IMG/VR virus record: IMGVR_UViG_3300018984_000007
Span: 1-52,941 of that record
DNA length: 52,941 bases
Direction: 5' to 3' (one strand)
Source: a virus
Lineage: Duplodnaviria > Caudoviricetes
The translations under genes and the position numbers were made by a program. Below are positions 332-52,941 of this stretch, in pieces. Each line of letters opens with the position of its first letter. Positions within the stretch are counted from its first letter, which is position 1. The notes beneath the pieces are model-generated. The model did no database searches and was not told the DNA's origin. It was given only the letters and a program-made list of their open reading frames with translations.

Positions 332-761
332 CTTCCATGCTCGGACTCAGCGGCTGATGGACAACCCTGGTGGCGGCAAGCTCATCTTCAAGATCTCGTT
401 CGACCAGGTCTACGCGCGTTACCAGCACGAGCGTCGGGACCTTTACCACCCGAGGGGTGGCGGTCCTGGATACCTCCGCAATGCGCTTAACGCGAATGCT
501 GCTCGTACGTTGCAGGCTCTTGCAGATGCAACTCTTCGTGGCAACCAGTCGATCGCGATGATCCGGGCGGCTCAGCGAACTGCGCAAGTAGCGGAGTCGG
601 GTGCGCCGGTAGAGACAGGTGAGCTTAAGAAGGATGCGGAGATCAAGGTTTACGACCGGGGCGCGCTGATTTTCCACCGTCCGTCGAAGGCTCCCGGCCG
701 CGAACCCAACAGCAGGCGTCGGACCGGCCGTCCGTCGCGGGCAAAGCGGACACCACGATGA
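321..761 (+). CDS. Neck/tail-completion protein (HK97 gp10-like)
   Basis: YARYQHE and APVETGELK motifs; lies between adaptor and tail terminator; ATG at 321 preferred to 213. Confidence 0.6.
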   Translation: MAGDFHARTQRLMDNPGGGKLIFKISFDQVYARYQHERRDLYHPRGGGPGYLRNALNANAARTLQALADATLRGNQSIAMIRAAQRTAQVAESGAPVETGELKKDAEIKVYDRGALIFHRPSKAPGREPNSRRRTGRPSRAKRTPR

Positions 762-1153
762 TCCTGATGAAGGACCTCATCCAGGAACTACGTGACTACC
801 TCGAAAACCCCGTTCTGGAGATCGTGCCTGGGCCGGATGACCCCGATACTTCCGAACGGTTCATTAAGTTGACCCGCACTGGTGGTGTGGGACTCGACCT
901 GGACGATCTGTTCGACCGTGTCGATATCGCGGTCGAGGTTGCCGGGGCACAAGGCGATTACGACGACGCGGAATCGCTGGCGTTCGAAGTCGACAGGTTC
1001 TTCCTGCGGCATGAAATGGGCAGAATGAGCGGCGCTCGGCTGTTGTCTTTTACCAGGGGTGGCGGTCCTTCGGCACTTCGGGTGGACGACGCTCAACGTC
1101 ACCATTTTGTGTGCAGTTACACTGCACATGTACAATCGGCACTAACGGCCTAG
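758..1153 (+). CDS. Tail terminator
   Basis: 131 aa with TRTGG and C-terminal RHHFVCSY; ATGA overlap; upstream of major tail gene. Confidence 0.65.
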   Translation: MILMKDLIQELRDYLENPVLEIVPGPDDPDTSERFIKLTRTGGVGLDLDDLFDRVDIAVEVAGAQGDYDDAESLAFEVDRFFLRHEMGRMSGARLLSFTRGGGPSALRVDDAQRHHFVCSYTAHVQSALTA

Positions 1154-1161
1154 GAGGACCT

Positions 1162-1386
1162 GTGGCAAACGCAACACAGCCGACACCCAGCGATAAGGTT
1201 GTCGTTAAGGCTCAGACCGGTTATTCGATCGACGCCATGGGCGCCGAGGGTCTGGAGGACGTTCCCGTCGTCGACGACCGCACTGGCGTCGAGATGACCC
1301 GTGAGCAGGCCGAGAAGCTTCGGTCCCTGGCTCGTCAGCAGGACGTGTCGATCACCGTCACGGCCAAGAAGGAGGATGACCAGTGA
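1162..1386 (+). CDS. Hypothetical virion-module protein
   Basis: AGGAGG RBS then GTG at 1162; coupled to major tail start. Confidence 0.6.
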   Translation: MANATQPTPSDKVVVKAQTGYSIDAMGAEGLEDVPVVDDRTGVEMTREQAEKLRSLARQQDVSITVTAKKEDDQ

Positions 1387-1961
1387 CCACCGGTGTTCTC
1401 TATGACGCCAACAATGTTGCCGTTGGTAACGCCACGTGCTGGTACAAGCCGTGGACCGCCACCCCCTCTGTTCCGGTCGCTGACGCCACTGCTGTCTTCA
1501 CTACCACTGCGTGGGAGACTGCATCTTGGGTCAACATGGGTGGTACTGACGAGGGCTTCAAGGTCAACGTCGAGACGAGCCTGACCGAGCTGATGATCGA
1601 AGAGCAGTCCACCCCGGTGGCGCAGTCGGTCGAGTCACGAGGCATCACGATCGAGGCGGCTCTGGCCGAAGACACGATCGAGAACATCAAGCTCGCCTGG
1701 AACGGTGGTACCATTGCGGTTGGCGCTGGCCCGCCTGCCAAGAAGACCATCACCCTCACCGACACGATCAACTACTGGACGATCGTGTTGGAGATGCGCA
1801 ACTGGATGGGGTTCGCCCGGCGAATTTACATCCCGAAGACCACCATCAACGCGTCCGGTACGACCGCATTCCGACGTGCGGCCGACAAGCGACTGTACCC
1901 TCTGCGGATCACGTCGATCTGTGCACCTAGCCAGATCCAGATCGTCGAGTTCTCCGCCTGA
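1383..1961 (+). CDS. Major tail (tube) protein
   Basis: 192 aa; W..MGGTDEGFKV tail-tube motif; upstream of chaperones and tape measure. Confidence 0.8.
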   Translation: MTTGVLYDANNVAVGNATCWYKPWTATPSVPVADATAVFTTTAWETASWVNMGGTDEGFKVNVETSLTELMIEEQSTPVAQSVESRGITIEAALAEDTIENIKLAWNGGTIAVGAGPPAKKTITLTDTINYWTIVLEMRNWMGFARRIYIPKTTINASGTTAFRRAADKRLYPLRITSICAPSQIQIVEFSA

Positions 1962-2002
1962 CCTAGTTTCACCCACTCACCCGGCATAGTGAGGTCCTTT
2001 TC

Positions 2003-2377
2003 ATGGCACAGTTCAATGCAGCCAAGGCTGTCGACCCGATCAATATCAATCTCAAGCCGTACGTCGACCTGGAAACGACGATTCCTGAACCGTCGACCAA
2101 AGCGATGACGGAGTTTCAGAACGTGCTCGTGTCCATGGCCAAGGAACTGAACATCAAGCCCGGCCAGCAGATGGACCTGGCAGCCATGGCAGAGATGCCC
2201 GAGGACGCGGCCAACGTCATCGCGGACAAGATGCAGGCAGCAATCATCGGATTGTGCGGTGGCGCTATCACCGACGCACACCTGGACGCGCTTCCCTTCC
2301 GCGTCAAGATCGCGTTCATCACGTGGTTGACGGGTGAGATCAGCCCGGAAGCCTCGACCCCCGGTACGAACAGGTAA
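2003..2377 (+). CDS. Tail assembly chaperone (G-like)
   Basis: Between major tail and tape measure; overlapped by an open -1 frame. Confidence 0.75.
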   Translation: MAQFNAAKAVDPININLKPYVDLETTIPEPSTKAMTEFQNVLVSMAKELNIKPGQQMDLAAMAEMPEDAANVIADKMQAAIIGLCGGAITDAHLDALPFRVKIAFITWLTGEISPEASTPGTNR

Positions 2378-2645: not shown

Positions 2646-5036
2646 GTGGTTCAGATCGGAACGTTCGACGCCGGAAAAATTGAGGCGGTTCTGACTCTGG
2701 ACCGCTCCCCCTTCAAGAGGGAACTGGCGGCAGCCCGCGCCGAGGTTGCAACGTTTGAAAAGAAGAAGCTAAACAAGACGCTGCACCTTGATGCCGACGT
2801 CGCTGCCGCGTTGGGTGAACTCGAAGCTGTCGACGAGGCTGTCGACAAGATCCCCGAAAAGAAGACCACCAAGATCAACATCGAGACGGGTAACGGCGTC
2901 TCGCGGACCCAAGCTCTCATCACGGCGGTCCTGGCCGGGCTCCCCCTGATTCCTGCCGTTGCGGCTCCAGCTGCTGCGGGCATCATGGGGTTGAGCGCAT
3001 CGCTTACGGCGGCGGCCGGTGGAGCCGTGATCCTGACGGCCGGACTCGTCGGCGCGGTGCAGCGATTCAATGAGGTGAAGGAAGCTGGGGGTCGGATGAC
3101 CCCTGAAATGCTTAAGTTCGGCGCGGCGATCAGTGTCCTCGGCACCCAGTGGGATCGGTTTATCGCCGTAACCCAAAATATGTCGTTCACTGTGATGACG
3201 ACCGGCATCAAGATCCTGTCGGATCTGCTGCCCCGTCTGGTCCCCGTCTTCACAGCTTTTGCCAACGTGGCCAACGGCGCGTTGAAGGCAGTCGGTGGTT
3301 GGTTCAACGGACCTGAGGGCCAGGCCATGTTGACCTGGTTCCAGACCTTCGGAGCCATGCAGTTCGGCGTGATCCTGGGTATTCTGGGCGACATGGGTCG
3401 CATCTTCATCAACCTAATGATGGCATTCTCTCCGTTCGCCACCACCATGATGAACGGGTTGCGGAGCCTGACGACCGGTTGGGTCGCCTGGTCTGCAGCG
3501 CTCAGCTCCAACACCGGGTTCCAGGAGTTCATGGCTTACGTTCAGCAGATCGGCCCGCAGGTCCTGGCGACCATGGGGTCGTTGGTCAACGCGATCGGCG
3601 CGATCCTGCGAGCGCTGGCTCCGCTCGCGCCGGTCCTGCTGTCCGTCATCAAGGGGTTCGCGGACTTCATCTCCGGGATGAACCCGGCCGTGCTGACCGG
3701 CATCATCGTGGCGGTCGGCAGCTTGGTCGCCGTCTGGACCGCGTACGAGGCGGTTGCCTCGATCGTGCGGGCCGGGATGATCCTGTGGACTGCGTTGATG
3801 GGAGCCTGGCGCGCGGTCACTATGCTGGCGACGGCGGCTCAGTGGCTGTTGAACGCGGCGTTGCTGGCGAACCCGATCGGCCTCGTAATCATCGCAATCG
3901 TCGCGTTGGTCGCGGCGCTGGTCATCGCTTACCAGAACAGCGAGACGTTTCGTAATATCGTCAATGCGGCGTGGGCTGCGATCAAAACCGCCATTGCCGC
4001 GACAATAAACTGGATCGTCAATACCGCTGTTCCCTGGGTGATGAATGCCGCGACTCAGATCGCAGCGTTCTTCACCCGGATGAAGGATCGGGTCGTCTCG
4101 GACTGGAACGCGCTATACGCTCGCGTCTCCGCGATCGTGAACACCATTCGAGCGGTGATCACGGCGGTAGTTGCGGCGATCGTGGCCCGCGTGGTTAGCG
4201 ACTTCAACACGATCCGCAACTTCGTCACCACGGCGGTAAACGCGGTGCGGGCGGTCATGACGGCTCAGTTCAATGCGGCGCGGACCGCCGTCACGACAGC
4301 TGTCAACGCGGTCAGGACGGCGGTCACCGCAGCGTTCAACGCGGTCAGGTCCGTGGTGTCGGCGGTCACCTCCGCCGTCTCAGCCGACGTTAGCTCCCGA
4401 TTCAACGCGGTTCGATCGGTCGTGACCTCCGTCGCGAACGCGGTCCGGGCCGTGGTTACGTCGCAGTTCCAGGCGGCTCGCGCCGCAGCGGTTGCCGCGT
4501 TTGCGGCGATGTACGCAGCGGTTGTGGGCCGGATGAACGCGATGCGCTCGACGATCGCAGGCGTGGCCAGCTCGATCCGGGGGATCTTCGCCGGAGCCGG
4601 TGGTTGGCTGGTCGGCGCAGGGCGGGCGATCATCGACGGTCTGATCTCCGGTGTCCGGTCCGGCATCGGCGCATTGCAAGGAATGCTCAGCTCCGTCACC
4701 AACATGATCCCGGACTGGAAGGGGCCGCGTGAGCGTGACGCGATCCTGCTCCGTCCGGCCGGTCGACTAATCATGAAGGGTCTCATCGGCGGAATCAAGG
4801 ACCAGATTAACCCGTTGAAGAGCACCCTCGCCGGAATTACCGACATGGTGGGTGGCGGTTCTTACGGGTTGGCCGGTGCGACAGGGGGTGGCGGTTCTTT
4901 GGCCCTGCGCGGTACAATGGCTCCAGCGCCTATGGCCGTCACGTTCAACAACTATTACCCGGTTGCTGAGCGCTCTTCCGAAAGGGCCACCCGTCAGATG
5001 ACCGAAATGGCAGTGTTGGGGGTGTTCAGCAGGTAA
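2646..5036 (+). CDS. Tape measure protein
   Basis: 796 aa, Ala-rich; LLANPIGLVIIAI motif; roughly 11-residue F/W-spaced repeats; canonical position. Confidence 0.9.
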   Translation: MVQIGTFDAGKIEAVLTLDRSPFKRELAAARAEVATFEKKKLNKTLHLDADVAAALGELEAVDEAVDKIPEKKTTKINIETGNGVSRTQALITAVLAGLPLIPAVAAPAAAGIMGLSASLTAAAGGAVILTAGLVGAVQRFNEVKEAGGRMTPEMLKFGAAISVLGTQWDRFIAVTQNMSFTVMTTGIKILSDLLPRLVPVFTAFANVANGALKAVGGWFNGPEGQAMLTWFQTFGAMQFGVILGILGDMGRIFINLMMAFSPFATTMMNGLRSLTTGWVAWSAALSSNTGFQEFMAYVQQIGPQVLATMGSLVNAIGAILRALAPLAPVLLSVIKGFADFISGMNPAVLTGIIVAVGSLVAVWTAYEAVASIVRAGMILWTALMGAWRAVTMLATAAQWLLNAALLANPIGLVIIAIVALVAALVIAYQNSETFRNIVNAAWAAIKTAIAATINWIVNTAVPWVMNAATQIAAFFTRMKDRVVSDWNALYARVSAIVNTIRAVITAVVAAIVARVVSDFNTIRNFVTTAVNAVRAVMTAQFNAARTAVTTAVNAVRTAVTAAFNAVRSVVSAVTSAVSADVSSRFNAVRSVVTSVANAVRAVVTSQFQAARAAAVAAFAAMYAAVVGRMNAMRSTIAGVASSIRGIFAGAGGWLVGAGRAIIDGLISGVRSGIGALQGMLSSVTNMIPDWKGPRERDAILLRPAGRLIMKGLIGGIKDQINPLKSTLAGITDMVGGGSYGLAGATGGGGSLALRGTMAPAPMAVTFNNYYPVAERSSERATRQMTEMAVLGVFSR

Positions 5037-5905: not shown

Positions 5906-8900
5906 GTCTCAGCTTTCGCATTCTTAACCTGGATACCGCAGCCTACATCGGTGACGTAATCGATTTCACCAGCGTCAAGGCATCATTCGAGTACTCCGGC
6001 GTCGGCGCGCTCAACATCGAGCAGCCGCTGACCGGCCGGTTCGCCAACTTGCTCACCACCGACGTTGAGGTGGTCGCGTACTGGAACAATACTGAAATCC
6101 GCAATGGACGTTGGGTGGTTCGCGGCAAGCAGGGTGAGACCGTTGATGACAGTGGCGGTCGGGTGGGTCTGGGAGGGTTGAGCTGGGCTGACGTTCTGCG
6201 CAAGGTGGTCGTCTACGCCGACACCACCTTCACAGCTCAGACTCCCGGCGCGATCATCCGAACCTTGCTGCAGACCGCCACCACCCGTGGGGCATTCGGT
6301 GCGGCGAACACGACCACTTCTACGTTTTCGAACACCCTGGATTCCAAAGGTGTTGCGTGGGCTAACAGCCTCACGATCACCTACCAGGCTGGCGCAACTT
6401 ACCGTCAGATTCTAGAGTCGCTGGCTGACCGTGGTCTGATTGACTTCGAGTTCGCCGGTCGCGACTTGATGATGTACAACGGCACCACGATGGGGACTAC
6501 CAAGGACGTGGTCCTGGCGGCCGGACGGCACGTCAAGGAGACCCCGTTCAAGGAGTCGACCGAGAATAAGGTTAACTACGTCCTGGTTGAGGGTGACAAT
6601 GGGCTGCTGACTGAGCGGTTCGTGTCAGGTCCCCGACGCGAGGAGTCGTTCCAGTCGCAGTCCGGCATCAAGGATGCGGGTACGCTCGCGGTTCTTGGGG
6701 ACTCGTACCTCACATCAGCCTCGATCACGAAATCACAACGCACCACCAAGATTGCGTCAGCCTCGTTGGTTCAGCCGTTCCAGGATTTTAACGTCGGGGA
6801 CTCGATCATCTACGACGATGGTTCAGGTCCGCAGACGATGCGAGTGCGTCAGATCACGGTCGAGATCGACAACGACGGCCGGATGGAAACGTCGCTAATC
6901 TTGAACGACCGTATCCTTGAAGATGAAATTGTTCGAGCGAAGACTCTGACGGCGCTCGCCGGAGGTGTTACGTCGGGAACAGTCGGCGCTCCCGAGACTG
7001 ACGTGGTCACGGACACCACGATCCCCAAAGCTCCGGCATCCGCAACCGCTTCCAGTTCGGCCTACGTCGACCAGACTAACGGTCGATCCTACGCGCAGGC
7101 GACCGTTACCTGGCCTGCGGTTACGCAAAACACCGACAATACGGCTATCGATGATCTTCACGCATACGAGGTCAAGTACCGAACCGACACCGCCACCCCC
7201 GCAACGACCCCAACCTCGTTGGCCCCGGCCACCCGATACGACACCCTTACGGCGCGGTTCGACCGACGCGGCAAGACCTACGGTTGGACGACCGGTATCA
7301 TGCATGGGTCGTGCCGGGCCGGAGGTCGGGACTGGTTTGACTTCGCAGACACCCGGATCGGCACTGCCAACGCACTCGGTGTGTTCACCACCACGGCCCA
7401 TTTGGTCCGCAACTCGATGGTACTGTTGGATCCAACCAACAACGCGTCATGGGATGCTCGCTGGGGCAAGGCCAATATGCTCACGGCGAATGATGCCAGC
7501 TTGGAAGCCGCGATCGGCACGTGGCGCGCGGACTCAAACTGCTCCGTCAGCCGGATCACGAGCACGGCCAAGCACGGGACGGCATCACTACAGGTCACCG
7601 TGACGGCTGCGGGGGACGCCGTAGCCACCACCGGTCTTGGGAGCGCCAGCGGCTGGTACGCAGTCACGGCGGCCACTCAGTACACGGTCCACGCTTACGC
7701 CCGTGAGACTTCCGGCACGGCCAAGAACTACACCGTTGGAATTCGCTGGTGGAATGCCTCCGGCACTCTGATCTCCACCACTGAATCCTCGTCCATGGCC
7801 GGTACGCAGTCGGGTTCCGGCGCGCACCGCCGACTCGCAGCAACGTTTACTTCTCCGGCGCTGGCAGTTCGCGCTGCGATCGTGGTTCGGGTTGTCGCTG
7901 GAACCTTGTCGCAGACACACTCGATCGACTGCGCTGGACTTTACCTGGGCGACAACATGATGTCATCTTGGTCGCTTCCCGGCACCGGATCGCATGTTGC
8001 GCTGATCACCCCCGAAGAAGTCAACCTCGCCACGTCAAATTATCTGCGGGCCGAGACGATGTGGACCTCGGGCGGCAAGGTCTATGCGATGTATTCGCTG
8101 TGGCCCGCCGCGACCTCCATCTATATCGCCCGATGGGACGCGACGACATTTGCGTTCGAGTGGTTCGCAGCGTTCCGCACGAGTGAGACCGTGGTCTGGG
8201 GTCGGACCTCGTGGGAGAACGCGACCTACTCGTACATCTACGGTTCAACAACGGCAGCTCCCACCTCCATGTTCCTTATGCGGGTTCCTGTCGGTAACCC
8301 GCTGGGAACGCAGGAGTTCTGGACCGGTGCTGCGTGGTCGGTCACCCGTGCGTCGGCTGCTGCGGTCTCCTCACTGAACAAAGGTCTGTCCAGTCTGACG
8401 CAGATCGGTGCGTCCTACTGGGGCATCACGATTTCGGCGAATAACCAGATTCGGCTCTACACATCGGCCGCGCTGGAATCGGGTTGGTCCGAGGTCGGCC
8501 TTGTGGCGTACATGTCGGAGGTCAACGGCACGACTGTAGTCGCGTCGGACGCCAAAATCCACCGACAGTTCGACAGTGCCGACGGTATCGTCATGTCGTA
8601 CTCGGCAGACGGCACGATCAATGGTCTGCAGAAGACCCGATACATGGTACCAAAGTTCCTGCGCGGACCCAAGGGATCGGTAACCGCACCCACTCCAATC
8701 ACTCCCTCATCGGCCACGATCACCATCGAAGCCGGAACTCTGGTCGCGTACGTTTCCGGCCTGCAGGTAAACGGTAACTTCGTCGCGTCCGTCCGAGCGG
8801 TGGACAACTCTGGCAACGCGTCCGGGTGGACCGACTCGAACGTTATTCGGTTGGCGGATGACACCACCCCGCCTCCGGCCCCGTCGATGCCACAGGTCGC

Positions 8901-20603: not shown

Positions 20604-20629
20604 TCTCACACATGGGGGTGGCGGTGGGA

Positions 20630-37415: not shown

Positions 37416-37462
37416 GGCGGGTTCTCCTTATGGGGGTGGCGGTTCTTCGGTTTGGGGGGAGA

Positions 37463-43768: not shown

Positions 43769-44100
43769 TGGCGACGCTGAATCTGACACCTGGAGCCACC
43801 GTGAGGGTGGTTCAGCCGACTGTAGGCCTGGTGTCGGTTGTTCGAGGCTCGCGCTCCATCGGGGTGGTGGCGGTTCCTGCTGGCGCGTCGGCGGGTCTGA
43901 CCGGTTACGAACACGTGCAGTCGGTCCCGGCGTCGACTTGGATCATTAGTCTCCCGGCTCAGTTTCCCGCCAGACGACCCGCAGTGTCTTTGTACGTGAA
44001 CGACGAGATGGTAGAATCCGACATAGTTTGGTCGCCTGGGATCAAAACTGTGACTGTGACGTTCCCGTCGCCAATCGCTGGCGTCGCTGTAATCACGTAA
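43768..44100 (+). CDS. Small virion protein
   Basis: YEHVQSVPASTW...VTVTFPSPIAGVA. Confidence 0.6.
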   Translation: MATLNLTPGATVRVVQPTVGLVSVVRGSRSIGVVAVPAGASAGLTGYEHVQSVPASTWIISLPAQFPARRPAVSLYVNDEMVESDIVWSPGIKTVTVTFPSPIAGVAVIT

Positions 44101-45927: not shown

Positions 45928-47976
45928 GTGGCGCGGACAACCAAACTCATCACAGCGGCTACCGGTACCGGTGTCGTTGGGGGCACGCGTCCGCCGTCGC
46001 TGTTTCGCACCCAAAAGTACCGCCCCGATGGTAATGAATCGAAAACCACCATCGTTGGTAAGCCGACGATTCCTCATTTCTTTGAGGATTACGAAGCCGG
46101 TAATATCAGCCGGTGGACGGTGGTCGCCGGTACCCCGCTGGTCACTTCAGCGGCAGCGTACGGTGGATCTGGATTCGGTGTTCGACTTTCACCTGGTAGT
46201 GGTGTTGGCGCGGGGTTCGGTACGTCCACGAACAAGTGGCCGCAAACTCACACCTGGGCAATCGTACGCACCCGATTCCGATTCAACACACTTCCATCTG
46301 GCACTTCGGGCGACATTTTCACGCTGCAGAGCATCACGCAGACCAATAACACTGACTTGTTTTACGACAATGTCACCGGTCAACTTAAGGCAGACATTGC
46401 AGCTGCCGACACTCTGCTGATTCCCGGTACGGTCACAACCGGCACTTGGTACACGGCCGAAGCTCGAATATTCGTTGGTGCAACCACTCACACTGCTGAG
46501 TTTCGCATCAATGGAACTACTGCCGGTACTATTAGCTCAGCGGGTAATACCAGTACATTCATTCGTTCGTTGACTCTTGGTGCGACCTCCACTAACAAGA
46601 CGTTCCAGATCGACTATGACGACACATACGTTTACGTTGCGTCGGCGCAGCCGGATTGGATCGATGACTGGACTGTTGCTGGAAACCCTGCGGTTGACAC
46701 GCTTACCGACGACTTCACCACTAAGGATCTTACGAAGTGGACGTGGGACGCAGCGGCCAGCGTATCCGGTGGTAACGCGGTAATCCCCTGTACCGGCGCT
46801 TACTCGACGATCTATTCGAACACGAATTATTCTCTAACCGGTTCATCCATCATGTTGAAATGGGCCGGGCTTCCCACTAAGGTGGGTGACGGAACTCAAG
46901 AGGCTCTGTTCATCGCGTACTCGGGTGGAGTAGTCCAAACCAGCAACTACTGGTCGATTTTCTGGACAGCCGGTGGTGCGGGAACACAGGCGATTTGCCT
47001 TCGCGAGATGGAGGCCGGATCCGCTGCCAGTGACGTTTATGTCAACTGGGACGCGACCGCCATGGCTTATTGGCGGATCCGCGAAAGTGGCGGAATAATA
47101 TATTGGGAAACCAGTCCTGATGCGACGACGTGGACAATTCGTCGCCAGAAGGCTCCTGCCGCTGGCATGGATGCGACGACCGTCAAGATCGGTTTGCAGA
47201 CGGGTTACTGGGGAACCGGTGGTGCGTCTGGTAATTTTCTAATCGATAGCATTAATGTTGCGCCGATAGTGCCGACGGGCCAAGTTGCATTTGGCTCATC
47301 GTCCTCGGCAGGGGACATGGTATCGGGGGTTACCAGTAGAACAGTGAACGTCCCGACTGGGGCCGCTATTGGCGATGTGATGGTGGCGGTTCTGGGGCGA
47401 TGGGGATCGGGCAACCCAGCGGTGACGGCTCCGGCCGGGTGGTCACAGAAGGTAGAATACGCTCAAGGCGGAAACTTCGCAGGATCAACCAACAAGACGA
47501 TGATCCTGTGGAAGCGACTGACCGCCGCTGACACTGGCACCTACACATTCTCCTGGACCGGAGGGTTGTGGGCACATCTTCACGTGGTTCGTTTCACTGG
47601 GGTTCTTGCATCAGGTGATCCGATCGGAACGTTACATACCAGCGCTGACACCGGAAGTTCCGGCGCGACTACTTACCCGTCCACCACATTGAATCCAGGG
47701 TTTGTCGGCGCGGGTATGCTTTGGCATGGTTACAACGATGCTGGTGGAACATCCACCCCGCCAACCGGTTACACGACCACTCAGGGAGGCGGGGCAACTT
47801 CAAATGCCATTACCGCCTACAGGTTCCCGACTGGCACTGGGCCACATGTCGCGTCTGGCGGTACTGCTCCAAACACGATACTTCAATCTGTACTAGTCGC
47901 GCTTCAGCCCGCCCCGCCTGGTGGCGGCACAACTACTAACCGGTTCATCGGATGGGGATGGGGAGTGGCAGTGTAA
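45928..47976 (+). CDS. Multi-module lectin/LamG-like adhesin
   Basis: 682 aa Thr/Gly/Trp-rich; three beta-sandwich-like modules; YWRIRESGGIIYWETSPD. Confidence 0.65.
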   Translation: MARTTKLITAATGTGVVGGTRPPSLFRTQKYRPDGNESKTTIVGKPTIPHFFEDYEAGNISRWTVVAGTPLVTSAAAYGGSGFGVRLSPGSGVGAGFGTSTNKWPQTHTWAIVRTRFRFNTLPSGTSGDIFTLQSITQTNNTDLFYDNVTGQLKADIAAADTLLIPGTVTTGTWYTAEARIFVGATTHTAEFRINGTTAGTISSAGNTSTFIRSLTLGATSTNKTFQIDYDDTYVYVASAQPDWIDDWTVAGNPAVDTLTDDFTTKDLTKWTWDAAASVSGGNAVIPCTGAYSTIYSNTNYSLTGSSIMLKWAGLPTKVGDGTQEALFIAYSGGVVQTSNYWSIFWTAGGAGTQAICLREMEAGSAASDVYVNWDATAMAYWRIRESGGIIYWETSPDATTWTIRRQKAPAAGMDATTVKIGLQTGYWGTGGASGNFLIDSINVAPIVPTGQVAFGSSSSAGDMVSGVTSRTVNVPTGAAIGDVMVAVLGRWGSGNPAVTAPAGWSQKVEYAQGGNFAGSTNKTMILWKRLTAADTGTYTFSWTGGLWAHLHVVRFTGVLASGDPIGTLHTSADTGSSGATTYPSTTLNPGFVGAGMLWHGYNDAGGTSTPPTGYTTTQGGGATSNAITAYRFPTGTGPHVASGGTAPNTILQSVLVALQPAPPGGGTTTNRFIGWGWGVAV

Positions 47977-49214
47977 TGGGAGTCTTGGAGCGCAAGCCAG
48001 GAGGGCCGGACAACTGGGTCGAACAGACCGGTGGTCTGCCCAAGTACATCGAGCGAATCGCCAAGCACCTGCACTATGAGCGTGGGATGTCGATCTCCCA
48101 CGCGATCGCAACCGCCGTCAACACGGTGAAGCGCTGGGCGCGTAAGGGCGGAGTCGTCAAGTATGGTGACCGTAACAATATGAAGGTCACGGTAAAGACC
48201 CAAGCTCAGGCCGCTGCTGCATTGGCGCAATGGGAGGCCAACAAGGCCAAGGCACGCGTCTTGCCAGGCACGCCGGGGGGTGGTAAGATGCGGCGTAGGC
48301 GGGCAGTCAATCTTTCGGAGGACATGGTGACGTTGGAGGCTCTTGCAGCCAGGGCCAACGCCATTGCTGACCCCGAAGCGCGAGGCCGGGCTCGAATGAA
48401 GGTCCTGGAACTTGCAGCCGGTGGTGGGGGTGGCGGTTCTGCCGCGCCTGCCACATTTAAGGGCAAGGCCGGAGCCGTGAAGGGCAAGACCGCCACCCCC
48501 GGTAAGAGCAAGGAACCGCAGGCTCGCGGCCAGAAGAAGGTCGTTGGAAAGCGGAAGCCGCCTTATCAGTGGAAGCACGGTTTCGTCCCAGTGACTGAGA
48601 AGGCGCTGGACTCGAAGGCTAAGGGTTCGCCCGTTGCCAAGGAGACGATCACCAAGAAGTACGGCCCCGTCAAGAAGGTCGGCAACGCGACCCAGACTCC
48701 CTCTGGTCCACGTGAAACAGCGGATAAGATCGTTGGTGGCCGGGCTCAGGGTCAGACCGCTAAGACTGGTGGAACCGTTTCCGGCCGTAAGGGCATCGTT
48801 GCCCTTAGGTTGCGTGAAGGAAAGAACAGTGGCCGTACCTTCGGTGAAGGTGTTCGCGCAGTCCAGGGTGACCCCAACCGTGACGTAGCCACCCGTGCAT
48901 CAACTGCCAAGCGCACCTGGGACAGCATCCCCGACAACCGTCGAGTGGTCCGCAACGGCAAGCGATACGTCATCGCCAACGTTGCAGGTCGCCAGCAGCT
49001 TACTCCTTGGGTTGGGGTGGGTGGCGGTCCTTCGAAGCCGACCAGCAACAAGCGGATCGTGTCGATCCGAACCGCGCAGGCTGAGTCGATGACCGAGGGT
49101 CAGATCCGTAAGGTTCTCAAGCCCAAGGGCGGAGCAACCGGTCAGGCTCGCGCCCCGTTGAACAAGGCGCTGGGTGCTAAGATCAAGCGTCGGAAGATTG
49201 CGAGAGTAGCATGA
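47976..49214 (+). CDS. Lys/Arg-rich head-module protein
   Basis: NWVEQTGGLPKYIERIA..AIATAVN N-domain then basic low-complexity region; TAATG coupling. Confidence 0.65.
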   Translation: MGVLERKPGGPDNWVEQTGGLPKYIERIAKHLHYERGMSISHAIATAVNTVKRWARKGGVVKYGDRNNMKVTVKTQAQAAAALAQWEANKAKARVLPGTPGGGKMRRRRAVNLSEDMVTLEALAARANAIADPEARGRARMKVLELAAGGGGGGSAAPATFKGKAGAVKGKTATPGKSKEPQARGQKKVVGKRKPPYQWKHGFVPVTEKALDSKAKGSPVAKETITKKYGPVKKVGNATQTPSGPRETADKIVGGRAQGQTAKTGGTVSGRKGIVALRLREGKNSGRTFGEGVRAVQGDPNRDVATRASTAKRTWDSIPDNRRVVRNGKRYVIANVAGRQQLTPWVGVGGGPSKPTSNKRIVSIRTAQAESMTEGQIRKVLKPKGGATGQARAPLNKALGAKIKRRKIARVA

Positions 49215-50554
49215 GCAAGGTTACTCTCTCCCCTGTTGATCTGTCGATCGCGGAAAAGACCGGTCGCCGGACCTTCCGCAAGCAGATTCTCAAGAAGGGG
49301 ACCATCAACTACCAGGGCACGCGGGTCGACTTCGACGACGACTTCCTGAGCGACTGTGTTGAGGCGTTCAAGAACGGCGCGTACGATCAGGTTCCCTTTG
49401 TACTCGCGACTCCGGACAATGCGCATAACATGGACCCGGAGCGCTATCGCGGCGAGATCGTCGACATGGAACTCACTGACGACGGTATCGACGCGATCAT
49501 CGAAACTACCAAGTCCGGCGCTAAGGCGATCGAGGACAACCCCAAGTTGGGGGTGTCGGCTCGCATCGTCCAGGGTCTGGCCAAGGTGGACGGTCGTAGT
49601 TTCCCTCGGGCGATCCAACACGTGCTCGCCACGATGGACCCGAGGCTGACGGGCATGCAGCCCTGGCAGCCGGTCGACCTGGCAATGTATTCTGGTGATG
49701 ACGAAGTGCTCGACCTCACCGCAGCTACCGTGAAGAAGGGAAACTCAGTGGCCACCAAGCCCAAGGCACGCAGCGGCGGGGTCGTTTCGTTCGACCTGTC
49801 CTCGCTGACCGACGAGCAGTTCAACATTCTGCTGTCGACTGCCGTCATGGACCCCGAGACGGACACCGATGACGGGACCGAAGAGCGTACTGTCACCGTC
49901 AAGACCAAGCGTTCCCCCAAGAGGGTCGTCGGCAAGCGCGTCGTCCAGGAGGCTGCGGCCGAAGAGGACGAGGACCTCGACGAGGTCGTCGACGAGGACG
50001 ACGACGACGTGGAGTACGTCGACGAGGAGGGTAACGCCGTCGACGCCGAGGGCAACCTCCTGGAGGACGACGAGGACGCCGAGCTGGAGGACGAGGACGA
50101 GGACGACGAGGACGAGGTCGTCGAGGCTCCGGCCGCTCGCGTCAAGGCCAAGCCTCGCAAGGCGGTTCCCGGCCAGCGTCGCAAGGTGGAGCTTTCCGAG
50201 CCGGTTCGCCCGGCGAAGAAGATGAGCAAGGCGCGTCGGCTGGAGCTGATGCTCTCCGAGCGCGTTTGGGAGAGCGAGAAGTCCAAGTACATCGGCGCTG
50301 GGGTTCCTCCGTTCCTCGTGGACCTGGCCGAGCCGGTCCTCAAGTCGCCGGACTCGCAGCTCCTGGACCTGTCCGAGGTGGGTGGCGGTTCTGTCGACGC
50401 TCGCACCACGATCCGCAAGATGCTGGACGGCGTCAAGGGAATGGTCGACCTGCGACCGGAGATCGGTCACCAGGTCGACCTGAGCACCATCGAGAAGGAC
50501 AGCCCTACCGACCGGGCACTCCAGGCCTGGAACGAGACCTACGGCACGCCCTGA
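49211..50554 (+). CDS. Capsid maturation protease / scaffold fusion
   Basis: N-domain with H..., GVSA, HVLATMDPRLTGM (Mu gpI-like); long Asp/Glu tract; upstream of capsid. Confidence 0.7.
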   Translation: MSKVTLSPVDLSIAEKTGRRTFRKQILKKGTINYQGTRVDFDDDFLSDCVEAFKNGAYDQVPFVLATPDNAHNMDPERYRGEIVDMELTDDGIDAIIETTKSGAKAIEDNPKLGVSARIVQGLAKVDGRSFPRAIQHVLATMDPRLTGMQPWQPVDLAMYSGDDEVLDLTAATVKKGNSVATKPKARSGGVVSFDLSSLTDEQFNILLSTAVMDPETDTDDGTEERTVTVKTKRSPKRVVGKRVVQEAAAEEDEDLDEVVDEDDDDVEYVDEEGNAVDAEGNLLEDDEDAELEDEDEDDEDEVVEAPAARVKAKPRKAVPGQRRKVELSEPVRPAKKMSKARRLELMLSERVWESEKSKYIGAGVPPFLVDLAEPVLKSPDSQLLDLSEVGGGSVDARTTIRKMLDGVKGMVDLRPEIGHQVDLSTIEKDSPTDRALQAWNETYGTP

Positions 50555-51031: not shown

Positions 51032-51069
51032 CGACCCCTCGCGACTGATTTACTAGAGAGGAAAAGCGA

Positions 51070-51987
51070 GTGCCCACCAAGGTCGTTAGTGCACAGGACG
51101 GTCTCCGTCTCACTGTCAACGCCATGACCAAGGACCCGACGCTCATCCCGGCGCGTCTGATCCAGAACCTGGAGAAGGAGTTCATCACTGACGCTCTTCT
51201 CCGGACGCTGCCTGCCACCAAGTCCGGGGTTTATGTCTACGACGAGTCCACCCCGATGTTCGCGGACGGCTCCGCCGCGATCGTCGAGGAGTTCGGTGAG
51301 ATCCCGGTCATCACCGGCCGTCAGGGTGACCGCAAGGCGGCTTACACCGTCAAGCGCGCTCTCGCGATGATGGTCTCTCAGGAGATGATCAACCGCAACG
51401 ACGTGGACCGAGTGAACACCCAGATCCGCCAGATCCGCAACACGATGGTGCGCACCTGGGAGACTTCTTTCCTCCAGGCTCTGTTCACCCTCACCACCAA
51501 CACGCAGGCCGCCGTTGGTGCCTGGTCCGGTGGTACCTCGAAGATCCGCAACGACCTGGCCCTGGCCTCGAAGAAGATCGCGGACTCCGCGCCGACTTCG
51601 GACCCGGACAACTACTTCGGTTTCCAGGCCGACACGCTGGTCATCGGGCACACCTCGCGTACCGACCTGATGACGAACGCGGACTTCAACGCCGCGTTCA
51701 GTTCGCAGGGTCCGCTGGCCGCGAAGAACACCGGCTACACTGGTGAGCTTCCGGGTCAGTTCTTCGGCCTGAACATCATGGTCTCCCGTGAGCTGGACCG
51801 TCTTTACCCCGGTAAGGCGATCCTGCTCCAGCGCAAGGTCGTCGGCGGTATCGGTGACGAGCGTCCGCTGCGGGCGACCGAGCTTTACCCGGACCGTCCG
51901 CGTGAGACGTTCCGGTCCGACCTCGTTCGTCAGTCGGCGGTCGTCATCGACCAGCCCGGCGCGGCGTGCCTCATCACGGGAGTCTGA
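51070..51987 (+). CDS. Major capsid protein
   Basis: 305 aa; VEEFGEIP, KRAL...VSQEMI HK97-fold pattern; position. Confidence 0.85.
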   Translation: MPTKVVSAQDGLRLTVNAMTKDPTLIPARLIQNLEKEFITDALLRTLPATKSGVYVYDESTPMFADGSAAIVEEFGEIPVITGRQGDRKAAYTVKRALAMMVSQEMINRNDVDRVNTQIRQIRNTMVRTWETSFLQALFTLTTNTQAAVGAWSGGTSKIRNDLALASKKIADSAPTSDPDNYFGFQADTLVIGHTSRTDLMTNADFNAAFSSQGPLAAKNTGYTGELPGQFFGLNIMVSRELDRLYPGKAILLQRKVVGGIGDERPLRATELYPDRPRETFRSDLVRQSAVVIDQPGAACLITGV

Positions 51988-51989
51988 GC

Positions 51990-52592
51990 ATGGCAGAGTA
52001 CGTGGTTCTGGCTGACGGGTGGCGTCGGCCGACCAAGATGGCAGACAACGCCACTCGTGACCTTCTGGAGTGGGAGGACTACTCCAAGGGTGATGTCGTC
52101 GAGCTGGACGAAGAGAAGGACAAGGCGGAGATCACCCGCCTGACCCCGGCTTTCCGTCCGGCGATCATGCTCAAGTCGGAGTACGAGAAGGTCGACCCCG
52201 AGTACCAGCGTCAGGTCATGGCTGTGACCGCCGCTCGTGCGGCCACCCTGGGTGGCGCGGGTTCCGCTCTTCCCGGCGACAACCAGCGCGAGTTCCCCGA
52301 GGGTCAGCGTGTGGACGCTCCGGGTTCCGCCGTCGGCTCTGGGGGTACGGACCCCGAGCCGCAGGGTCTCACGGGTGAGGCTGCAGGGGACAAGTATGAC
52401 GACGCCGAGGCGTACTCGTACCCCGAGCTGCAGGCCGAGGCTCGCAGTCGCGGGATCAGCGCGGGTGGCTCGCGGGGTGACCTGGCGGCTCGTCTCCGCG
52501 AATTCGACCGGCTCAACCAGTCCGAGCTGACTCGCCGTGCGGCGGGCGAGGACCTGGACGACGACAACAAGGACGTTGCGCTCAACAACTGA
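51990..52592 (+). CDS. Hypothetical protein with C-terminal SAP/HeH-like motif
   Basis: YSYPELQAEARSRGISAGGSRGDLAARL. Confidence 0.65.
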   Translation: MAEYVVLADGWRRPTKMADNATRDLLEWEDYSKGDVVELDEEKDKAEITRLTPAFRPAIMLKSEYEKVDPEYQRQVMAVTAARAATLGGAGSALPGDNQREFPEGQRVDAPGSAVGSGGTDPEPQGLTGEAAGDKYDDAEAYSYPELQAEARSRGISAGGSRGDLAARLREFDRLNQSELTRRAAGEDLDDDNKDVALNN

Positions 52593-52626
52593 GTGCACGC
52601 CAACTACGACCCTCCAGGAGGCTAAC

Positions 52627-52941
52627 GTGTACTCGTCGGTAGACGATGTTCGTAACGCGTTGGCCCCTGGAGGGTCGGCGTCTGACACCGGAACCGCTGC
52701 GGCGGTCGAGGACAACCAAATCCAAGACGCCATTGCCGAGGCGGACGGCATCATCTCGGTGCATATCGCGTCGCGGTACGAGATTCCGCTGGACATGACC
52801 GCCACCCCACCTGGTGTGGTGGCGGTTTCCCCGGTTCGGTGGTGGTCCCGGACCATCGCGGCTTACCTCATCACGCTAACTTACAAGCGTGGCAAGGACG
52901 TTCCCGAGGACGAGCCAGCTCGGCTGCGGTACGACGAAGTG
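52627..52941 (+). CDS. Head-tail adaptor, 5' part (continues at window start)
   Basis: AGGAGG RBS and GTG 52627; in frame with 5..331 through the terminal repeat. Confidence 0.75.
   Translation, partial: MYSSVDDVRNALAPGGSASDTGTAAAVEDNQIQDAIAEADGIISVHIASRYEIPLDMTATPPGVVAVSPVRWWSRTIAAYLITLTYKRGKDVPEDEPARLRYDEV
52816..52941. repeat. 126-bp terminal direct repeat (copy 2)
   Basis: Identical to 5-130. Confidence 0.95.

What the first reader, a model, noticed from the sequence alone, without database searches (positions are those of the whole stretch)
456..52826. Genome-wide, frame-independent 9-mer GGTGGCGGT (at least 43 copies)
Seen: by hand I find GGTGGCGGT on + at 456, 1058, 4851, 4887, 9361, 11478, 17836, 18021, 19649, 20617, 21653, 23558, 25028, 27085, 28351, 30101, 30807, 32737, 33626, 34073, 35670, 36354, 37435, 40281, 43696, 43866, 44561, 47382, 48429, 49020, 50381 and 52818 (32 copies; position 7 duplicates the last). 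Its complement ACCGCCACC is at 1455, 6274, 7189, 9166, 16157, 21444, 41015, 43392, 43580, 48489 and 52798 (11 copies). A rough composition-only expectation at about 62% GC is around one copy in total. Most copies extend to GGG(G/T)GGTGGCGGT(T/C)C. In genes it is read as Gly-Gly-Gly (456, 1058), Val-Ala-Val (21653, 34073, 43696) and Gly-Trp-Arg (17836, 40281); it also occurs intergenically (20617, 37435) and keeps + orientation within the leftward cassette (35670, 36354, 37435). Inference: selection acts on the DNA, not the protein. Possible roles are a Chi-like signal for a host AdnAB/RecBCD-type nuclease, a stoperator-like array (cf. mycobacteriophage L5 GGTGG-containing stoperators, but here mostly intragenic and with no evident repressor), a primase or translocase loading site, or binding sites for a phage DNA-coating protein.
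Basis: partly seen in the sequence, partly recalled or inferred. Interest (0 to 1): 0.88.

Follow-up and report, generated by a model that had tools for sequence, protein, structure and literature searches.

The report
Genome-wide recognition word in an actinophage
A soil phage has written the same short DNA word about 45 times through its genes by its choice of codons, most likely as landing sites for its own DNA-copying starter enzyme, and I found no paper that describes such a layout.

Summary
GGTGGCGGT occurs 46 times in the window (33+/13-), or 45 on the 52,815-bp circle. About 1 copy is expected from dinucleotide shuffles and about 10 from synonymous-codon shuffles. It is not frame-independent: 29 of 41 genic copies sit in codon phase 0 (Gly-Gly-Gly or Thr-Ala-Thr). 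The core is sharp, K-GGTGGCGGT with weaker GG...YCT flanks. Sites show no intergenic preference and are slightly more evenly spaced than chance.

The word does not look host-given. No enrichment appeared in 401 sampled Actinomycetota genomes, and there was none, and no skew, in large genomes checked for the 8-mer. The same core is the top or near-top word in cultured phages of other genera (Streptomyces phage Hiyaa, Arthrobacter phage Glenn) that share this phage's PrimPol-PolA-PurZ replication module. Position 8 differs between close relatives. Syntenic phages with other AEP primase-helicases carry other dispersed words, for example JackieB with CGTGTAAACG x41.

My best reading, at about 0.45, is a template-recognition grid for the phage's Prim-Pol/PriCT-1 primase-helicase. 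The word contains GTG, the site that pRN1 and NrS-1 primases require. A Chi-like signal and another phage DNA-binding protein remain rivals. This scan has reached the same reading before on other phage DNA. I found no paper describing it.

The parts
7..15 (+). word copy; duplicate of 52818 (assembly overlap)
456..464 (+). word copy, sense phase 0 (GGG-P)
1058..1066 (+). word copy, sense phase 0 (GGG-P)
1455..1463 (-). word copy, antisense phase 0 (TAT-P)
4851..4859 (+). word copy in tape measure gene (GGG-S)
4887..4895 (+). word copy in tape measure gene (GGG-S)
6274..6282 (-). word copy, antisense phase 0 (TAT) in 1832-aa tail gene
7189..7197 (-). word copy, antisense phase 0 (TAT)
9166..9174 (-). 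word copy, antisense phase 0 (TAT)
9361..9369 (+). word copy, sense phase 0 (GGG-P)
11478..11486 (+). word copy, sense phase 0 (GGG-P)
16157..16165 (-). word copy at the start of ORF 16154-16840 (outside my shorter gene call)
17836..17844 (+). word copy, sense phase 1 (G-W-R)
18021..18029 (+). word copy, sense phase 0 (GGG-F)
19649..19657 (+). word copy, outside my gene calls (inside listed ORF 19626-19880)
20617..20625 (+). word copy, intergenic
21444..21452 (-). word copy in Sak4-like gene, antisense phase 0 (TAT); last - copy before the 14-copy + run
21653..21661 (+). word copy in Sak4-like gene (VAV)
23558..23566 (+). word copy in PrimPol gene (GGG-T)
25028..25036 (+). word copy in PrimPol gene (GGG-R)
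27085..27093 (+). word copy in PolA gene (GGG-S)
28351..28359 (+). word copy at the 3' end of the PolA gene (GGG-S)
30101..30109 (+). word copy (GGG-R)
30807..30815 (+). word copy (GGG-T)
32737..32745 (+). word copy (GGG-R)
33626..33634 (+). word copy in dUTPase-fusion gene (VAV)
34073..34081 (+). word copy in dUTPase-fusion gene (VAV)
35670..35678 (+). word copy, + strand inside a leftward gene (read TAT-P)
36354..36362 (+). word copy, + strand inside leftward gene 35832-36686 (read TAT-P)
37435..37443 (+). word copy, intergenic in the leftward cassette
40281..40289 (+). word copy at the 5' end of the terminase gene; a like-placed variant copy stands in relative G002
41015..41023 (-). word copy in terminase gene (TAT-L)
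43392..43400 (-). word copy at the portal 3' end, antisense phase 2
43580..43588 (-). word copy (TAT-I)
43696..43704 (+). word copy (VAV)
43866..43874 (+). word copy, outside my gene calls
44561..44569 (+). word copy (GGG-T)
47382..47390 (+). word copy (VAV)
48429..48437 (+). word copy (GGG-S)
48489..48497 (-). word copy (TAT-P)
49020..49028 (+). word copy (GGG-P)
50381..50389 (+). word copy (GGG-S)
52798..52806 (-). word copy; left arm of an inverted pair with 52818, also present in G002
52818..52826 (+). word copy; the only copy kept letter for letter at the aligned place in G002
22967..25555 (+). Prim-Pol + PriCT_1 primase-helicase gene (862 aa); proposed reader of the word
   Evidence: PF09250 4.5e-21, PF08708 3e-11
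26350..28383 (+). family A DNA polymerase of the same module
28701..29765 (+). PurZ-like adenylosuccinate synthetase (Z-genome marker) of the same module
35832..36686 (-). one of three paralogous Cys-cluster proteins; its N-terminus looks like a winged helix; rival candidate reader

Best explanation
The word K-GGTGGCGGT, with weaker GG...YCT flanks, is a recognition site read by the phage's own replication module. The most probable reader is the 862-aa Prim-Pol/PriCT-1 primase-helicase (22967-25555). In this model the helix-bundle domain of the primase binds the word on single-stranded template, with a GTG core at word positions 2-4. DNA synthesis then starts next to it.

Because the enzyme is choosy, the genome must offer the word every 1-2 kb. 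Selection has therefore written it into genes wherever the protein tolerates Gly-Gly-Gly, Val-Ala-Val or Thr-Ala-Thr.

Shown here:
- the enrichment and its DNA-level origin;
- the lack of positional or intergenic preference;
- the recurrence of the core in phages that share the module.

For: 1. Selection is at the DNA level. There are 46 copies against 10.4 +/- 2.3 under synonymous shuffles. 18 of 40 GGG and 11 of 17 TAT tripeptides use the one spelling.

2. Behaviour is set by density, not position. 5 of 45 sites are intergenic, equal to the 11% non-coding share. Sites are mostly not at aligned places in relative G002. Spacing is more even than random: CV 0.77 against 0.97, P about 0.05, largest gap 3.46 kb.

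3. The word follows the replication module, not the virion module or host genus.
- Streptomyces phage Hiyaa has a different virion module. Its PrimPol is 34% identical over 860 aa and its PurZ 47%. It has GGTGGCGG as top 8-mer: 77 copies against 15.2 by Markov-3 and 42.5 +/- 3.9 under synonymous shuffle.
- Arthrobacter phage Glenn has a PrimPol 37.7% identical over the full length. GGTGGCG is its top 7-mer (43 against 15.7) and GGTGGCGGT its top 9-mer (12 against 1.2).
- Streptomyces phage JackieB shares the window's virion module (TerL 50%), but its PrimPol aligns only from residue 209. It shows no enrichment (14 against 9.8) and has its own word, CGTGTAAACG.

4. The word drifts between close lineages. 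Position 8 is G in the window (50/71), T in G002 (23/38) and C in L291 (10/18).

5. Dispersed, evenly spaced words occur in 7 of 11 whole related genomes. All 7 encode an AEP-type primase fused to a D5/DUF3987/PriCT-type C-terminal part, though the RepB_primase hits in G410 and G406 are just under Pfam's cut-off. Of the 4 word-less genomes, two have RepB_primase+AAA_25 or Toprim+MCM. No primase was found in the other two among the ORFs I tested.

6. There is precedent. pRN1 ORF904 strictly needs GTG in the template, starts immediately 5' of it, and residues 1-370 suffice (PMC2034472, passages). NrS-1 primase-polymerase uses TTTGGTTA and GTG(A/G), with GTGG among the best (PMC8718748, passages).
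Against: 1. No experiment or direct computation links the primase to the word.

2. Overall PrimPol similarity does not predict the word. IMG/VR locus L292 has a PrimPol 42% identical over the full length, no GGTGGCG excess (6 against 6.2), and another word, AGTCATATG. Five other loci at 41-44% also show none: L302, L305 and L318 match from residue 211, L294 from residue 128 and L311 from residue 150.

3. Gordonia phage Sapo (32%) and Microbacterium phage Cicada (36%) are only about 2-fold enriched. Sapo is not significant under synonymous shuffling (41 against 29.3 +/- 4.4).

5. G411 and JackieB have similar words (CTGTAAAG and GTGTAAAC) but PrimPols that BLAST does not align.

6. No gene family strictly tracks the presence of a word.

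7. A 10-15 nt primase site is longer than any described.

8. The + only and - only subsets of the window are not individually evenly spaced (P 0.18 and 0.91).

9. In Hiyaa the reversed word is also high (43 against 12.5), partly through overlapping GGCGGTGGCGG sites.
Confidence: 0.45

Rival explanations
1. The word is the binding site of another phage-encoded sequence-specific DNA-binding protein of the same module. One candidate is the set of three paralogous Cys-cluster proteins (16154-16840, 35832-36686, 38467-39210). The protein would coat, organise or regulate the whole genome, a stoperator-like or nucleoid-like role.
For: - The word is phage-lineage specific and drifts at position 8, as expected of a co-evolving phage reader.
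- The C-terminal module of 35832-36686 has homologues in G002 (47% over 58 aa) and Hiyaa (30% over 158 aa). Both carry GGTGGCG-type words.
- Its N-terminus resembles winged-helix regulators in the Atlas structure search. TM by row is 0.42-0.65 for short wHTH proteins, but pTM of the model is only 0.33. There is also a weak Rrf2 hit, E 0.14.
- Precedent: Cluster A stoperators (PMC9283540, abstract seen in the listing).
Against: - Sites show no intergenic preference (5 of 45) and no link to transcription direction.
- Places are not conserved with G002.
- JackieB has an equally dense grid but no tblastn match to these proteins.
- No repressor or integrase was found among the ORFs I scanned.
- The structural look-alike is weak.
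- Even spacing is not a known property of operator-type sites.
Confidence: 0.2
2. The word is a Chi-like signal read by a host helicase-nuclease (RecBCD or AdnAB). It would protect the phage's DNA ends or stimulate recombination-dependent replication, as in Chi-rich phages LLS, MD8 and P1.
For: - The first eight letters match E. coli Chi GCTGGTGG and Pseudomonas Chi GCTGGCGC at 6 of 8 places each (my comparison with the sequences given in PMC12315714 sections 6 and 18).
- As in LLS and MD8, it is the commonest word and lies mostly on the top strand when the terminase genes are at the left: 32 of 45, binomial P 0.007. All 14 copies between 21653 and 40281 are +.
- The recognised strand has no A, so it would read the same in a Z-substituted genome. 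That is inference.
- In P. aeruginosa PAO1, Chi is only the 43rd commonest octamer (PMC12315714 section 18). A weak host signal is therefore possible.
Against: - Of 401 sampled Actinomycetota genomes, none has the 9-mer above about 0.22 per kb or above about 2.3 times its reversed control, by my reading of the table. The phage has 0.87 per kb and 46:1.
- In the five largest genomes the 8-mer equals its control.
- In 400 kb of one of them it is 84+/81-, with no skew.
- Two Streptomyces phages carry quite different words.
- Position 8 differs between close relatives.
- Relatives' words sit equally on both strands, and sites are evenly spread rather than clustered at an end.
- The phage has its own exonuclease, Sak4-like and SSB-like genes, unlike the Chi-rich lambdoid class.
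- The run of 14 is only P 0.05. The strand bias may come from which tripeptides proteins tolerate.
- The host is unknown, so its genome could not be tested.
Confidence: 0.1
3. The word has no function of its own. It is a by-product of glycine-rich protein segments, codon usage or base composition.
For: - 29 of 41 genic copies are in codon phase 0.
- In other IMG/VR phages the same 9-mer clusters in glycine-rich tail-fibre-like genes.
- The 7-mer is common in high-GC genomes, for example 1109 copies in the 1.4-Mb genome G001.
Against: - Synonymous shuffling keeps proteins and codon usage yet gives 10.4 +/- 2.3, maximum 19, against 46.
- The spelling is chosen 10-fold over expectation within GGG and TAT.
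- Copies lie in genes across the whole genome and in 5 intergenic places, on both strands.
- One-letter variants are rare.
- The reversed word occurs once.
Confidence: 0.03

Closest known systems
Template recognition sites of AEP primase-polymerases with a helix-bundle domain: pRN1 ORF904 (5'-GTG-3') and phage NrS-1 (5'-TTTGGTTA-3', 5'-GTG(A/G)-3')
   Same:
- The word contains GTG, indeed GTGG.
- Specificity in the known cases lies in the N-terminal 300-370 residues (PMC2034472 and PMC8718748, passages).
   Different: - The known sites are 3-8 nt and were defined in vitro. Neither set of passages I read describes genome-wide enrichment. The NrS-1 paper says the 8-mer sites are few in the NrS-1 genome.
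- Here the conserved word is 10-15 nt, present 45 times, and written through codon choice.
- No biochemistry exists for this enzyme.
Chi-rich phages (E. coli LLS and P1, P. aeruginosa MD8; PMC12315714)
   Same: - A short G-rich word is the commonest oligomer of the phage.
- It is far above expectation and mostly on the top strand with terminase at the left.
- It matches Chi of E. coli and of Pseudomonas at 6 of 8 letters.
   Different: - In those phages the word is the host's proven Chi, clustered near the right end, 87-100% in one orientation, and typical of phages without a recombination module.
- Here there is no host signal in the genomes sampled, the spread is even, 29% of copies are on the other strand, and a recombination module is present.
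- Relatives carry unrelated words.
Stoperators of Cluster A mycobacteriophages
   Same: An asymmetric 13-bp-class site repeated some tens of times over an actinophage genome. The site count is my recollection. The abstract of PMC9283540 speaks of numerous sites across the genome.
   Different: - From recall, stoperators lie in short intergenic gaps, point one way relative to transcription, and are read by the immunity repressor of a temperate phage.
- Here 40 of 45 sites are in coding sequence, orientation is not tied to transcription, and I found no repressor or integrase.
Repeated motifs described in Microbacterium and other actinophages (SAS/ESAS, Cluster EC 18-bp motif; PMC7302621)
   Same: Lineage-specific conserved words in actinophage genomes, with unknown readers.
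   Different: The published motifs number 5-12 copies and sit in small intergenic regions or at ribosome-binding sites (passages). The present word is intragenic, 45 copies, on both strands.

Membership tests
AEP primase (Prim-Pol + helix-bundle domain) recognition sites | The genome encodes a primase of that architecture | tested here: met
   22967-25555 has PF09250 Prim-Pol (4.5e-21) and PF08708 PriCT_1 (3e-11). The C-terminal 650 aa align with the JackieB primase/polymerase.
AEP primase (Prim-Pol + helix-bundle domain) recognition sites | The site contains the short core that such primases need (GTG in pRN1 and NrS-1) | tested here: met
   GTG stands at word positions 2-4 in all 46 copies. 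The cores come from PMC2034472 and PMC8718748. A 3-letter match is weak on its own.
AEP primase (Prim-Pol + helix-bundle domain) recognition sites | The word changes with the primase across phages | tested here: inconclusive
   For: Hiyaa, Glenn, L291 and L317 share the core, while JackieB differs. Against: L292 is 42% identical yet has another word, and five further loci at 41-44% show no excess. G411 and JackieB have like words but unalignable PrimPols.
AEP primase (Prim-Pol + helix-bundle domain) recognition sites | Primers start at or next to the site on single-stranded template | not testable with these tools
   This needs primase assays or mapping of nascent-strand 5' ends.
Chi sites | Over-represented and replication-oriented in the host chromosome | tested here: not met
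   The host is unknown. Among 401 sampled Actinomycetota genomes none is enriched. In five large genomes the 8-mer equals its control. In 400 kb of G059 it is 84+/81-.
Chi sites | In phages: one active orientation, clustered towards the DNA end that the nuclease enters | tested here: inconclusive
   Strands are 32+/13-. All 14 copies in the presumed right third are + (P 0.05), but there is no terminal clustering and the physical ends are unknown.
Chi sites | Recognised by the host RecBCD, AddAB or AdnAB | not testable with these tools
   This needs the host enzyme.
Stoperators (Cluster A mycobacteriophages) | Sites in short intergenic regions, oriented with transcription | tested here: not met
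   5 of 45 are intergenic, the same as the non-coding share. Genic copies are 27 sense and 14 antisense. The + orientation is kept in leftward genes.
Stoperators (Cluster A mycobacteriophages) | An immunity repressor that reads them | tested here: inconclusive
   No repressor or integrase family was hit among the 30 ORFs scanned. Many ORFs have no family at all.
DNA uptake sequences (USS/DUS) | About one copy per kb throughout the host genome | tested here: not met
   The largest density in 401 sampled genomes is about 0.22 per kb, close to the reversed control. The density, sharp core and frame bias resemble USS only in form.

The most novel reading that the evidence does not exclude
A large group of actinophages, including the Z-genome (PurZ) phages of Arthrobacter, Streptomyces and this biocrust phage, replicate with primase-helicases that start only on a long lineage-specific word. 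Each genome therefore carries a co-evolving start-site grid, a private replication address code. The code is written through synonymous codons and even through amino-acid choice. It would confine priming to the phage's own DNA and shut out host or rival DNA.
Probability: 0.3. Interest if true: 0.85.

Novelty: new variant of a known kind. Interest (0 to 1): 0.72.

Why it matters
If the reading is right, a replication enzyme's sequence preference has reshaped codon use and even protein sequence across a whole phage genome. Gly-Gly-Gly occurs 40 times, where I estimate about 10 from the glycine share.

It would give a simple sequence read-out of primase specificity for hundreds of sequenced actinophages. 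It would also offer a way for a phage to tell its own DNA from the host's. That bears on recoding or engineering such phages, because synonymous changes would not be neutral.

It is directly testable. Hiyaa, Glenn and JackieB are cultured phages with non-pathogenic laboratory hosts.

If the Chi-like rival were right instead, this would be the first candidate Chi for an actinobacterial helicase-nuclease. I found none in print.

Tried and rejected
Composition or coding by-product: rejected.

Mobile or duplicated element: rejected, because flanks beyond about 3 nt on each side are unrelated.

Host-side search:
- The phylum scan of 401 genomes found no enriched genome. 15 of those genomes are marked unpublished: G125, G006, G179, G396, G231, G053, G244, G023, G341, G153, G087, G273, G323, G348, G093. 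The statement 'none of 401' rests partly on them. No number I quote singly comes from them.
- One search listed 100 + copies in a row in G059. I took this for possible skew. Fetching 400 kb showed 84+/81-, so it was only the order of the listing.

GC skew as an independent sign of fork direction: ambiguous. The + strand excess in the leftward cassette is explained by C-ending codons.

The dense loci were glycine-rich tail-fibre-like genes.

Close relatives for a test at synonymous sites: none could be fetched. TerL relatives at 70-74% identity exist only in Logan and JGI short contigs, and the tool to fetch them was closed. IMG/VR and JGI gave at most 62%. A single-protein PrimPol scan found nothing.

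A gene family that tracks word presence: none found.

The genome search with the whole PrimPol found nothing in 10 relatives. Local tblastn and Pfam then showed other AEP primases there.

Sequencing runs: the only full holder is a biocrust metagenome that may be the source. I laid no reads.

Papers: I found none on Hiyaa, none on JackieB's word (primer hits only), none on an actinobacterial Chi, and none on genome-wide primase-site grids. Supplements were not asked for. Supplemental Table S3 of PMC12315714 and S10 Fig of PMC7302621 may bear on the comparisons.

I made no structure prediction, complex prediction or RNA search.

Full report
WHAT THE WINDOW IS

The window is a complete IMG/VR virus record. 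Its last 126 bases repeat positions 5-130, the mark of a circular assembly, so the unique genome is 52,815 bp. The only run that holds it fully is a biocrust metagenome, which may be its source.

Gene content:
- terminase 40184-42028
- portal 42013-43458
- major head protein 51070-51987
- tape measure 2646-5036
- a 1832-aa tail gene 5902-11400
- endolysin 12120-12938
- SNF2 helicase 13987-15627
- PD-(D/E)XK exonuclease 18685-19626
- Sak4-like protein 21396-22334
- SSB-like protein 22340-22885
- Prim-Pol/PriCT_1 protein 22967-25555
- family A polymerase 26350-28383
- PurZ-like adenylosuccinate synthetase 28701-29765
- dUTPase fusion 33396-34364
- a leftward cassette 34569-39210

There is no tRNA. 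No integrase or repressor family was hit.

All best protein matches are to actinophages. The endolysin's look-alikes are from Actinomycetota. The virion half resembles Streptomyces phage JackieB (TerL 50%). The replication half has the gene order of Arthrobacter Cluster AK phages such as Glenn, including leftward genes near the right end (PMC5513430 passages). That places the probable left end just upstream of the terminase genes, near 39.3 kb. This is an inference.

THE OBSERVATION

GGTGGCGGT occurs 46 times, 33+/13-, or 45 times on the circle, 32+/13-. Two - copies (14942, 18875) were missed.

Controls:
- Dinucleotide shuffles give 0.92 copies, maximum 4.
- The reversed word occurs once.
- Markov models of order 1-5 give 1.0-8.7.
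- It is the commonest 9-mer by a factor of four over any unrelated one.
- The core is sharp. Relaxing any one letter adds at most a handful of copies.
- Position -1 is G or T in all 45 copies, with weaker G at -3 and -2 and YCT at +1 to +3.

Synonymous-codon shuffles within 64 heuristic gene calls give 10.4 +/- 2.3, maximum 19, of which 5 are immovable intergenic copies. Codon permutation gives 7.2. I did not run a dicodon-preserving shuffle.

The word is not frame-independent. 18 genic copies are sense GGT-GGC-GGT, 11 are antisense ACC-GCC-ACC, 7 are sense Val-Ala-Val, and 5 are in other phases. Yet the spelling is chosen. 18 of 40 Gly-Gly-Gly and 11 of 17 Thr-Ala-Thr tripeptides use it, against 1.8 and 1.2 expected from codon usage. 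So a DNA-level demand is met where proteins tolerate small residues.

Sites do not prefer intergenic DNA: 5 of 45, against an 11% non-coding share. Spacing is a little more even than random (CV 0.77 against 0.97, P about 0.05, largest gap 3.46 kb). The strand bias has binomial P 0.007. The longest + run, 14 copies from 21653 to 40281, has P 0.05.

IS IT A HOST SIGNAL?

The word resembles Chi. It matches 6 of 8 letters of the E. coli and Pseudomonas octamers. Chi-rich phages are known: in LLS, P1 and MD8, Chi is the commonest octamer, sits mostly on the top strand and clusters at the right end (PMC12315714 sections 6, 15, 18). I therefore looked for it in possible hosts.

- In 401 genomes drawn across Actinomycetota, none reaches more than about 0.22 copies per kb or about 2.3 times the reversed control, by my reading of the table. 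The phage has 0.87 per kb and 46:1.
- In the five largest genomes the 8-mer equals its control.
- In 400 kb of one of them it is 84+/81-.
- The host itself is unknown, so this is evidence from a sample only.

The phage also has its own recombination genes, unlike the Chi-rich lambdoid class.

RELATIVES

The closest terminase relatives I could fetch are at most 62% identical.

The contig G002 (TerL 53%, 21.8 kb) carries GGTGGCGTT 16 times, 13+/3-. This is the same core with another letter at position 8. Its sites are mostly not at the places aligned with the window's sites. Of the 14 distinct window sites in the shared region that I could align, only 52818 is kept letter for letter (site 7 is the same copy).

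The 7-mer core is 2.2-3.6 times over a Markov-3 expectation in six of the seven closest loci. It is near 1 in about 85 more distant ones.

A WIDER PATTERN

Syntenic Streptomyces phage JackieB has its own word, (C)GTGTAAAC(G):
- 41 copies, 22+/19-;
- 27 in coding sequence and 14 not;
- spacing CV 0.54, with no simulation as even in 5000;
- 15.5 +/- 1.4 copies under synonymous shuffles.

Whole IMG/VR relatives show the same thing with other words:
- CCCTGTGG in G408, G409 and G410 (25, 21 and 28 copies);
- CCTGTGCG in G406 (27 copies);
- CTGTAAAG in G411 (19 copies).

Strand counts are near equal. Spacing is significantly even in G409, G410 and G411, but not in G406 or G408. G407, G412, G413 and G414 have no such word.

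All seven word-bearing genomes encode an AEP-type primase fused to a helicase-like part:
- Prim-Pol in the window, JackieB and G411;
- RepB_primase+DUF3987 in G408-G410;
- RepB_primase+D5_N+DUF5906 in G406. The RepB_primase hits in G410 and G406 are just under Pfam's cut-off.

Among the word-less genomes, G412 has RepB_primase+AAA_25 and G413 has Toprim+MCM. I identified no primase in G407 or G414 among the ORFs tested. No single gene family tracks the trait.

THE DECISIVE COMPARISON

The nearest cultured homologues of the window's PrimPol N-terminus are in Streptomyces phage Hiyaa and its kin. Hiyaa is 83.2 kb with a different virion module. It shares with the window the PrimPol (34% over 860 aa), PurZ (47%), the SSB-like gene, the dUTPase fusion and a Cys-cluster module. 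Its top 8-mer is GGTGGCGG:
- 77 copies, 43+/34-;
- 15.2 expected by Markov-3;
- 42.5 +/- 3.9 under synonymous shuffles, with 24 copies outside my crude gene calls;
- a 5' flank of GG(G/C) and no preference at position 9.

Arthrobacter phage Glenn (PrimPol 37.7% over the full length) has GGTGGCG as top 7-mer (43 against 15.7), GGTGGCGG at 24 against 5.5, and GGTGGCGGT as top 9-mer (12 against 1.2).

JackieB, also a Streptomyces phage, has no excess (14 against 9.8).

So the core follows the PrimPol-PolA-PurZ module across host genera and virion types. It does not follow the host genus or the capsid.

Position 8 varies by lineage: G in the window, Glenn and Hiyaa; T in G002; T or C in L317; C in L291.

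LIMITS OF THAT LINK

- Gordonia phage Sapo and Microbacterium phage Cicada, which have the same module, are only about 2-fold enriched. Sapo is not significant.
- Over 43 IMG/VR loci with PrimPol homologues, the pooled excess is 1.4-2.1 for the 7-mer, 1.6-3.0 for the 8-mer and 2.3-4.9 for the 9-mer. Many of these loci are near-identical Cluster AK isolates.
- L292 (42% over the full length) has none and carries AGTCATATG instead. Five loci at 41-44% have none.
- PurZ and PrimPol co-occur in the same actinophage groups: 105 Arthrobacter, 18 Microbacterium and 6 Gordonia records in both searches. I could not separate them.

MECHANISM

AEP primases of this architecture are the known sequence-specific ones.
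- pRN1 ORF904 strictly needs GTG in the template and starts immediately 5' of it. The site is not copied, and residues 1-370 suffice (PMC2034472).
- NrS-1 uses TTTGGTTA and GTG(A/G), and its helix-bundle domain binds the site (PMC8718748).

The window's word has GTG at positions 2-4. I therefore commit, at about 0.45, to this model. The PriCT-1 helix bundle reads K-GGTGGCGGT on single-stranded template, and synthesis starts beside it. The genome has been selected to offer a site every 1-2 kb, more often on the strand that would be the lagging-strand template of a rightward fork.

The broader claim is that a phage-encoded factor of the replication module reads the word. I hold that at about 0.7.

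The main rival is another phage DNA-binding protein. The leftward gene 35832-36686 has a weak winged-helix look, and its C-terminal module recurs in G002 and Hiyaa. I keep the Chi-like reading at about 0.1.

COMPARISON WITH PRINT AND WITH THIS SCAN

Repeats described in actinophages are intergenic and number 5-12 copies (PMC7302621 passages). The passages I read on Cluster AK mention none. My searches found no paper on Hiyaa, on JackieB's word, on an actinobacterial Chi or on primase-site grids.

Earlier notes of this scan describe like words in other phages (TGTGGTTA, TGTGGGCA, TGACCACAC) with the same primase reading. The first of these gave me the lead. They are unchecked notes and are not evidence.

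Noticed in passing
window 1-130 and 52816-52941: The last 126 bases repeat positions 5-130, so the record is a circular assembly of 52,815 bp although it is labelled linear. The first four bases differ from the bases before the repeat at the far end.
   Followed up: yes
L024+L236 (Streptomyces phage JackieB, MH229863.1): The AT-rich word (C)GTGTAAAC(G) occurs 41 times on both strands of a 68% GC genome and is very evenly spaced. Five copies fill the gap between a ribosome-binding site and a start codon. TGTAAA hardly occurs outside the word (43 copies against 0.4 expected). I found no paper on it.
   Followed up: partly
G410 (L249-L251, L264), G409, G408, G406 (L237-L239, L265): These terminase relatives carry CCCTGTGG or CCTGTGCG 21-28 times. 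G410 and G406 also encode QueC and radical-SAM (QueE-like) genes, and G406 adds GTP cyclohydrolase I. This points to 7-deazaguanine DNA modification.
   Followed up: partly
window 26350-34364; L266/L267 (Hiyaa), L289 (Glenn), L268 (Sapo), L290 (Cicada): The window's PurZ-like gene is 43-51% identical to genes annotated as PurZ or PurA-like in Arthrobacter, Microbacterium, Streptomyces and other actinophages. It sits in the same order as in Glenn: exonuclease, Sak4-like, PrimPol, PolA, PurZ, dUTPase. The window looks like a mosaic of a JackieB-like virion half and a Cluster AK-like replication half.
   Followed up: partly
window 52798-52826; G002 reversed 12295-12316: Two word copies face each other 11 bp apart inside a conserved head-tail gene. 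The relative G002 has an inverted pair at the aligned place. It is the only site pair conserved between the two phages.
   Followed up: partly
window 40270-40310; L014 3706-3745: Just after the word copy at the terminase 5' end, both phages have the short direct repeat GGTCCGGGGGTCCGGGG.
   Followed up: no
window 35832-36686 (-): Residues about 15-110 resemble winged helix-turn-helix regulators in the Atlas structure search. There is also a weak Rrf2 hit (E 0.14). The C-terminal Cys-cluster module is shared with 16154-16840 and 38467-39210 (PHROGs 5390, 5477, 5395).
   Followed up: partly
window 18324-18692: A small ORF with weak HNH or homing-endonuclease PHROG hits lies just upstream of the exonuclease gene and overlaps its start.
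   Followed up: no
L269-L288 (first 400 kb of G059): The most strand-skewed octamer there is CTCCCCCG (40 against 4). It may be that genome's polar (KOPS-like) word. It is unrelated to the phage word.
   Followed up: no
L292, L296, L294 (IMG/VR PrimPol relatives): Other over-represented 9-mers in PrimPol-bearing contigs: AGTCATATG (8 copies in 14.9 kb), GCTGTAGTG and TGGTATACT. I did not check whether they are intergenic or dispersed.
   Followed up: no
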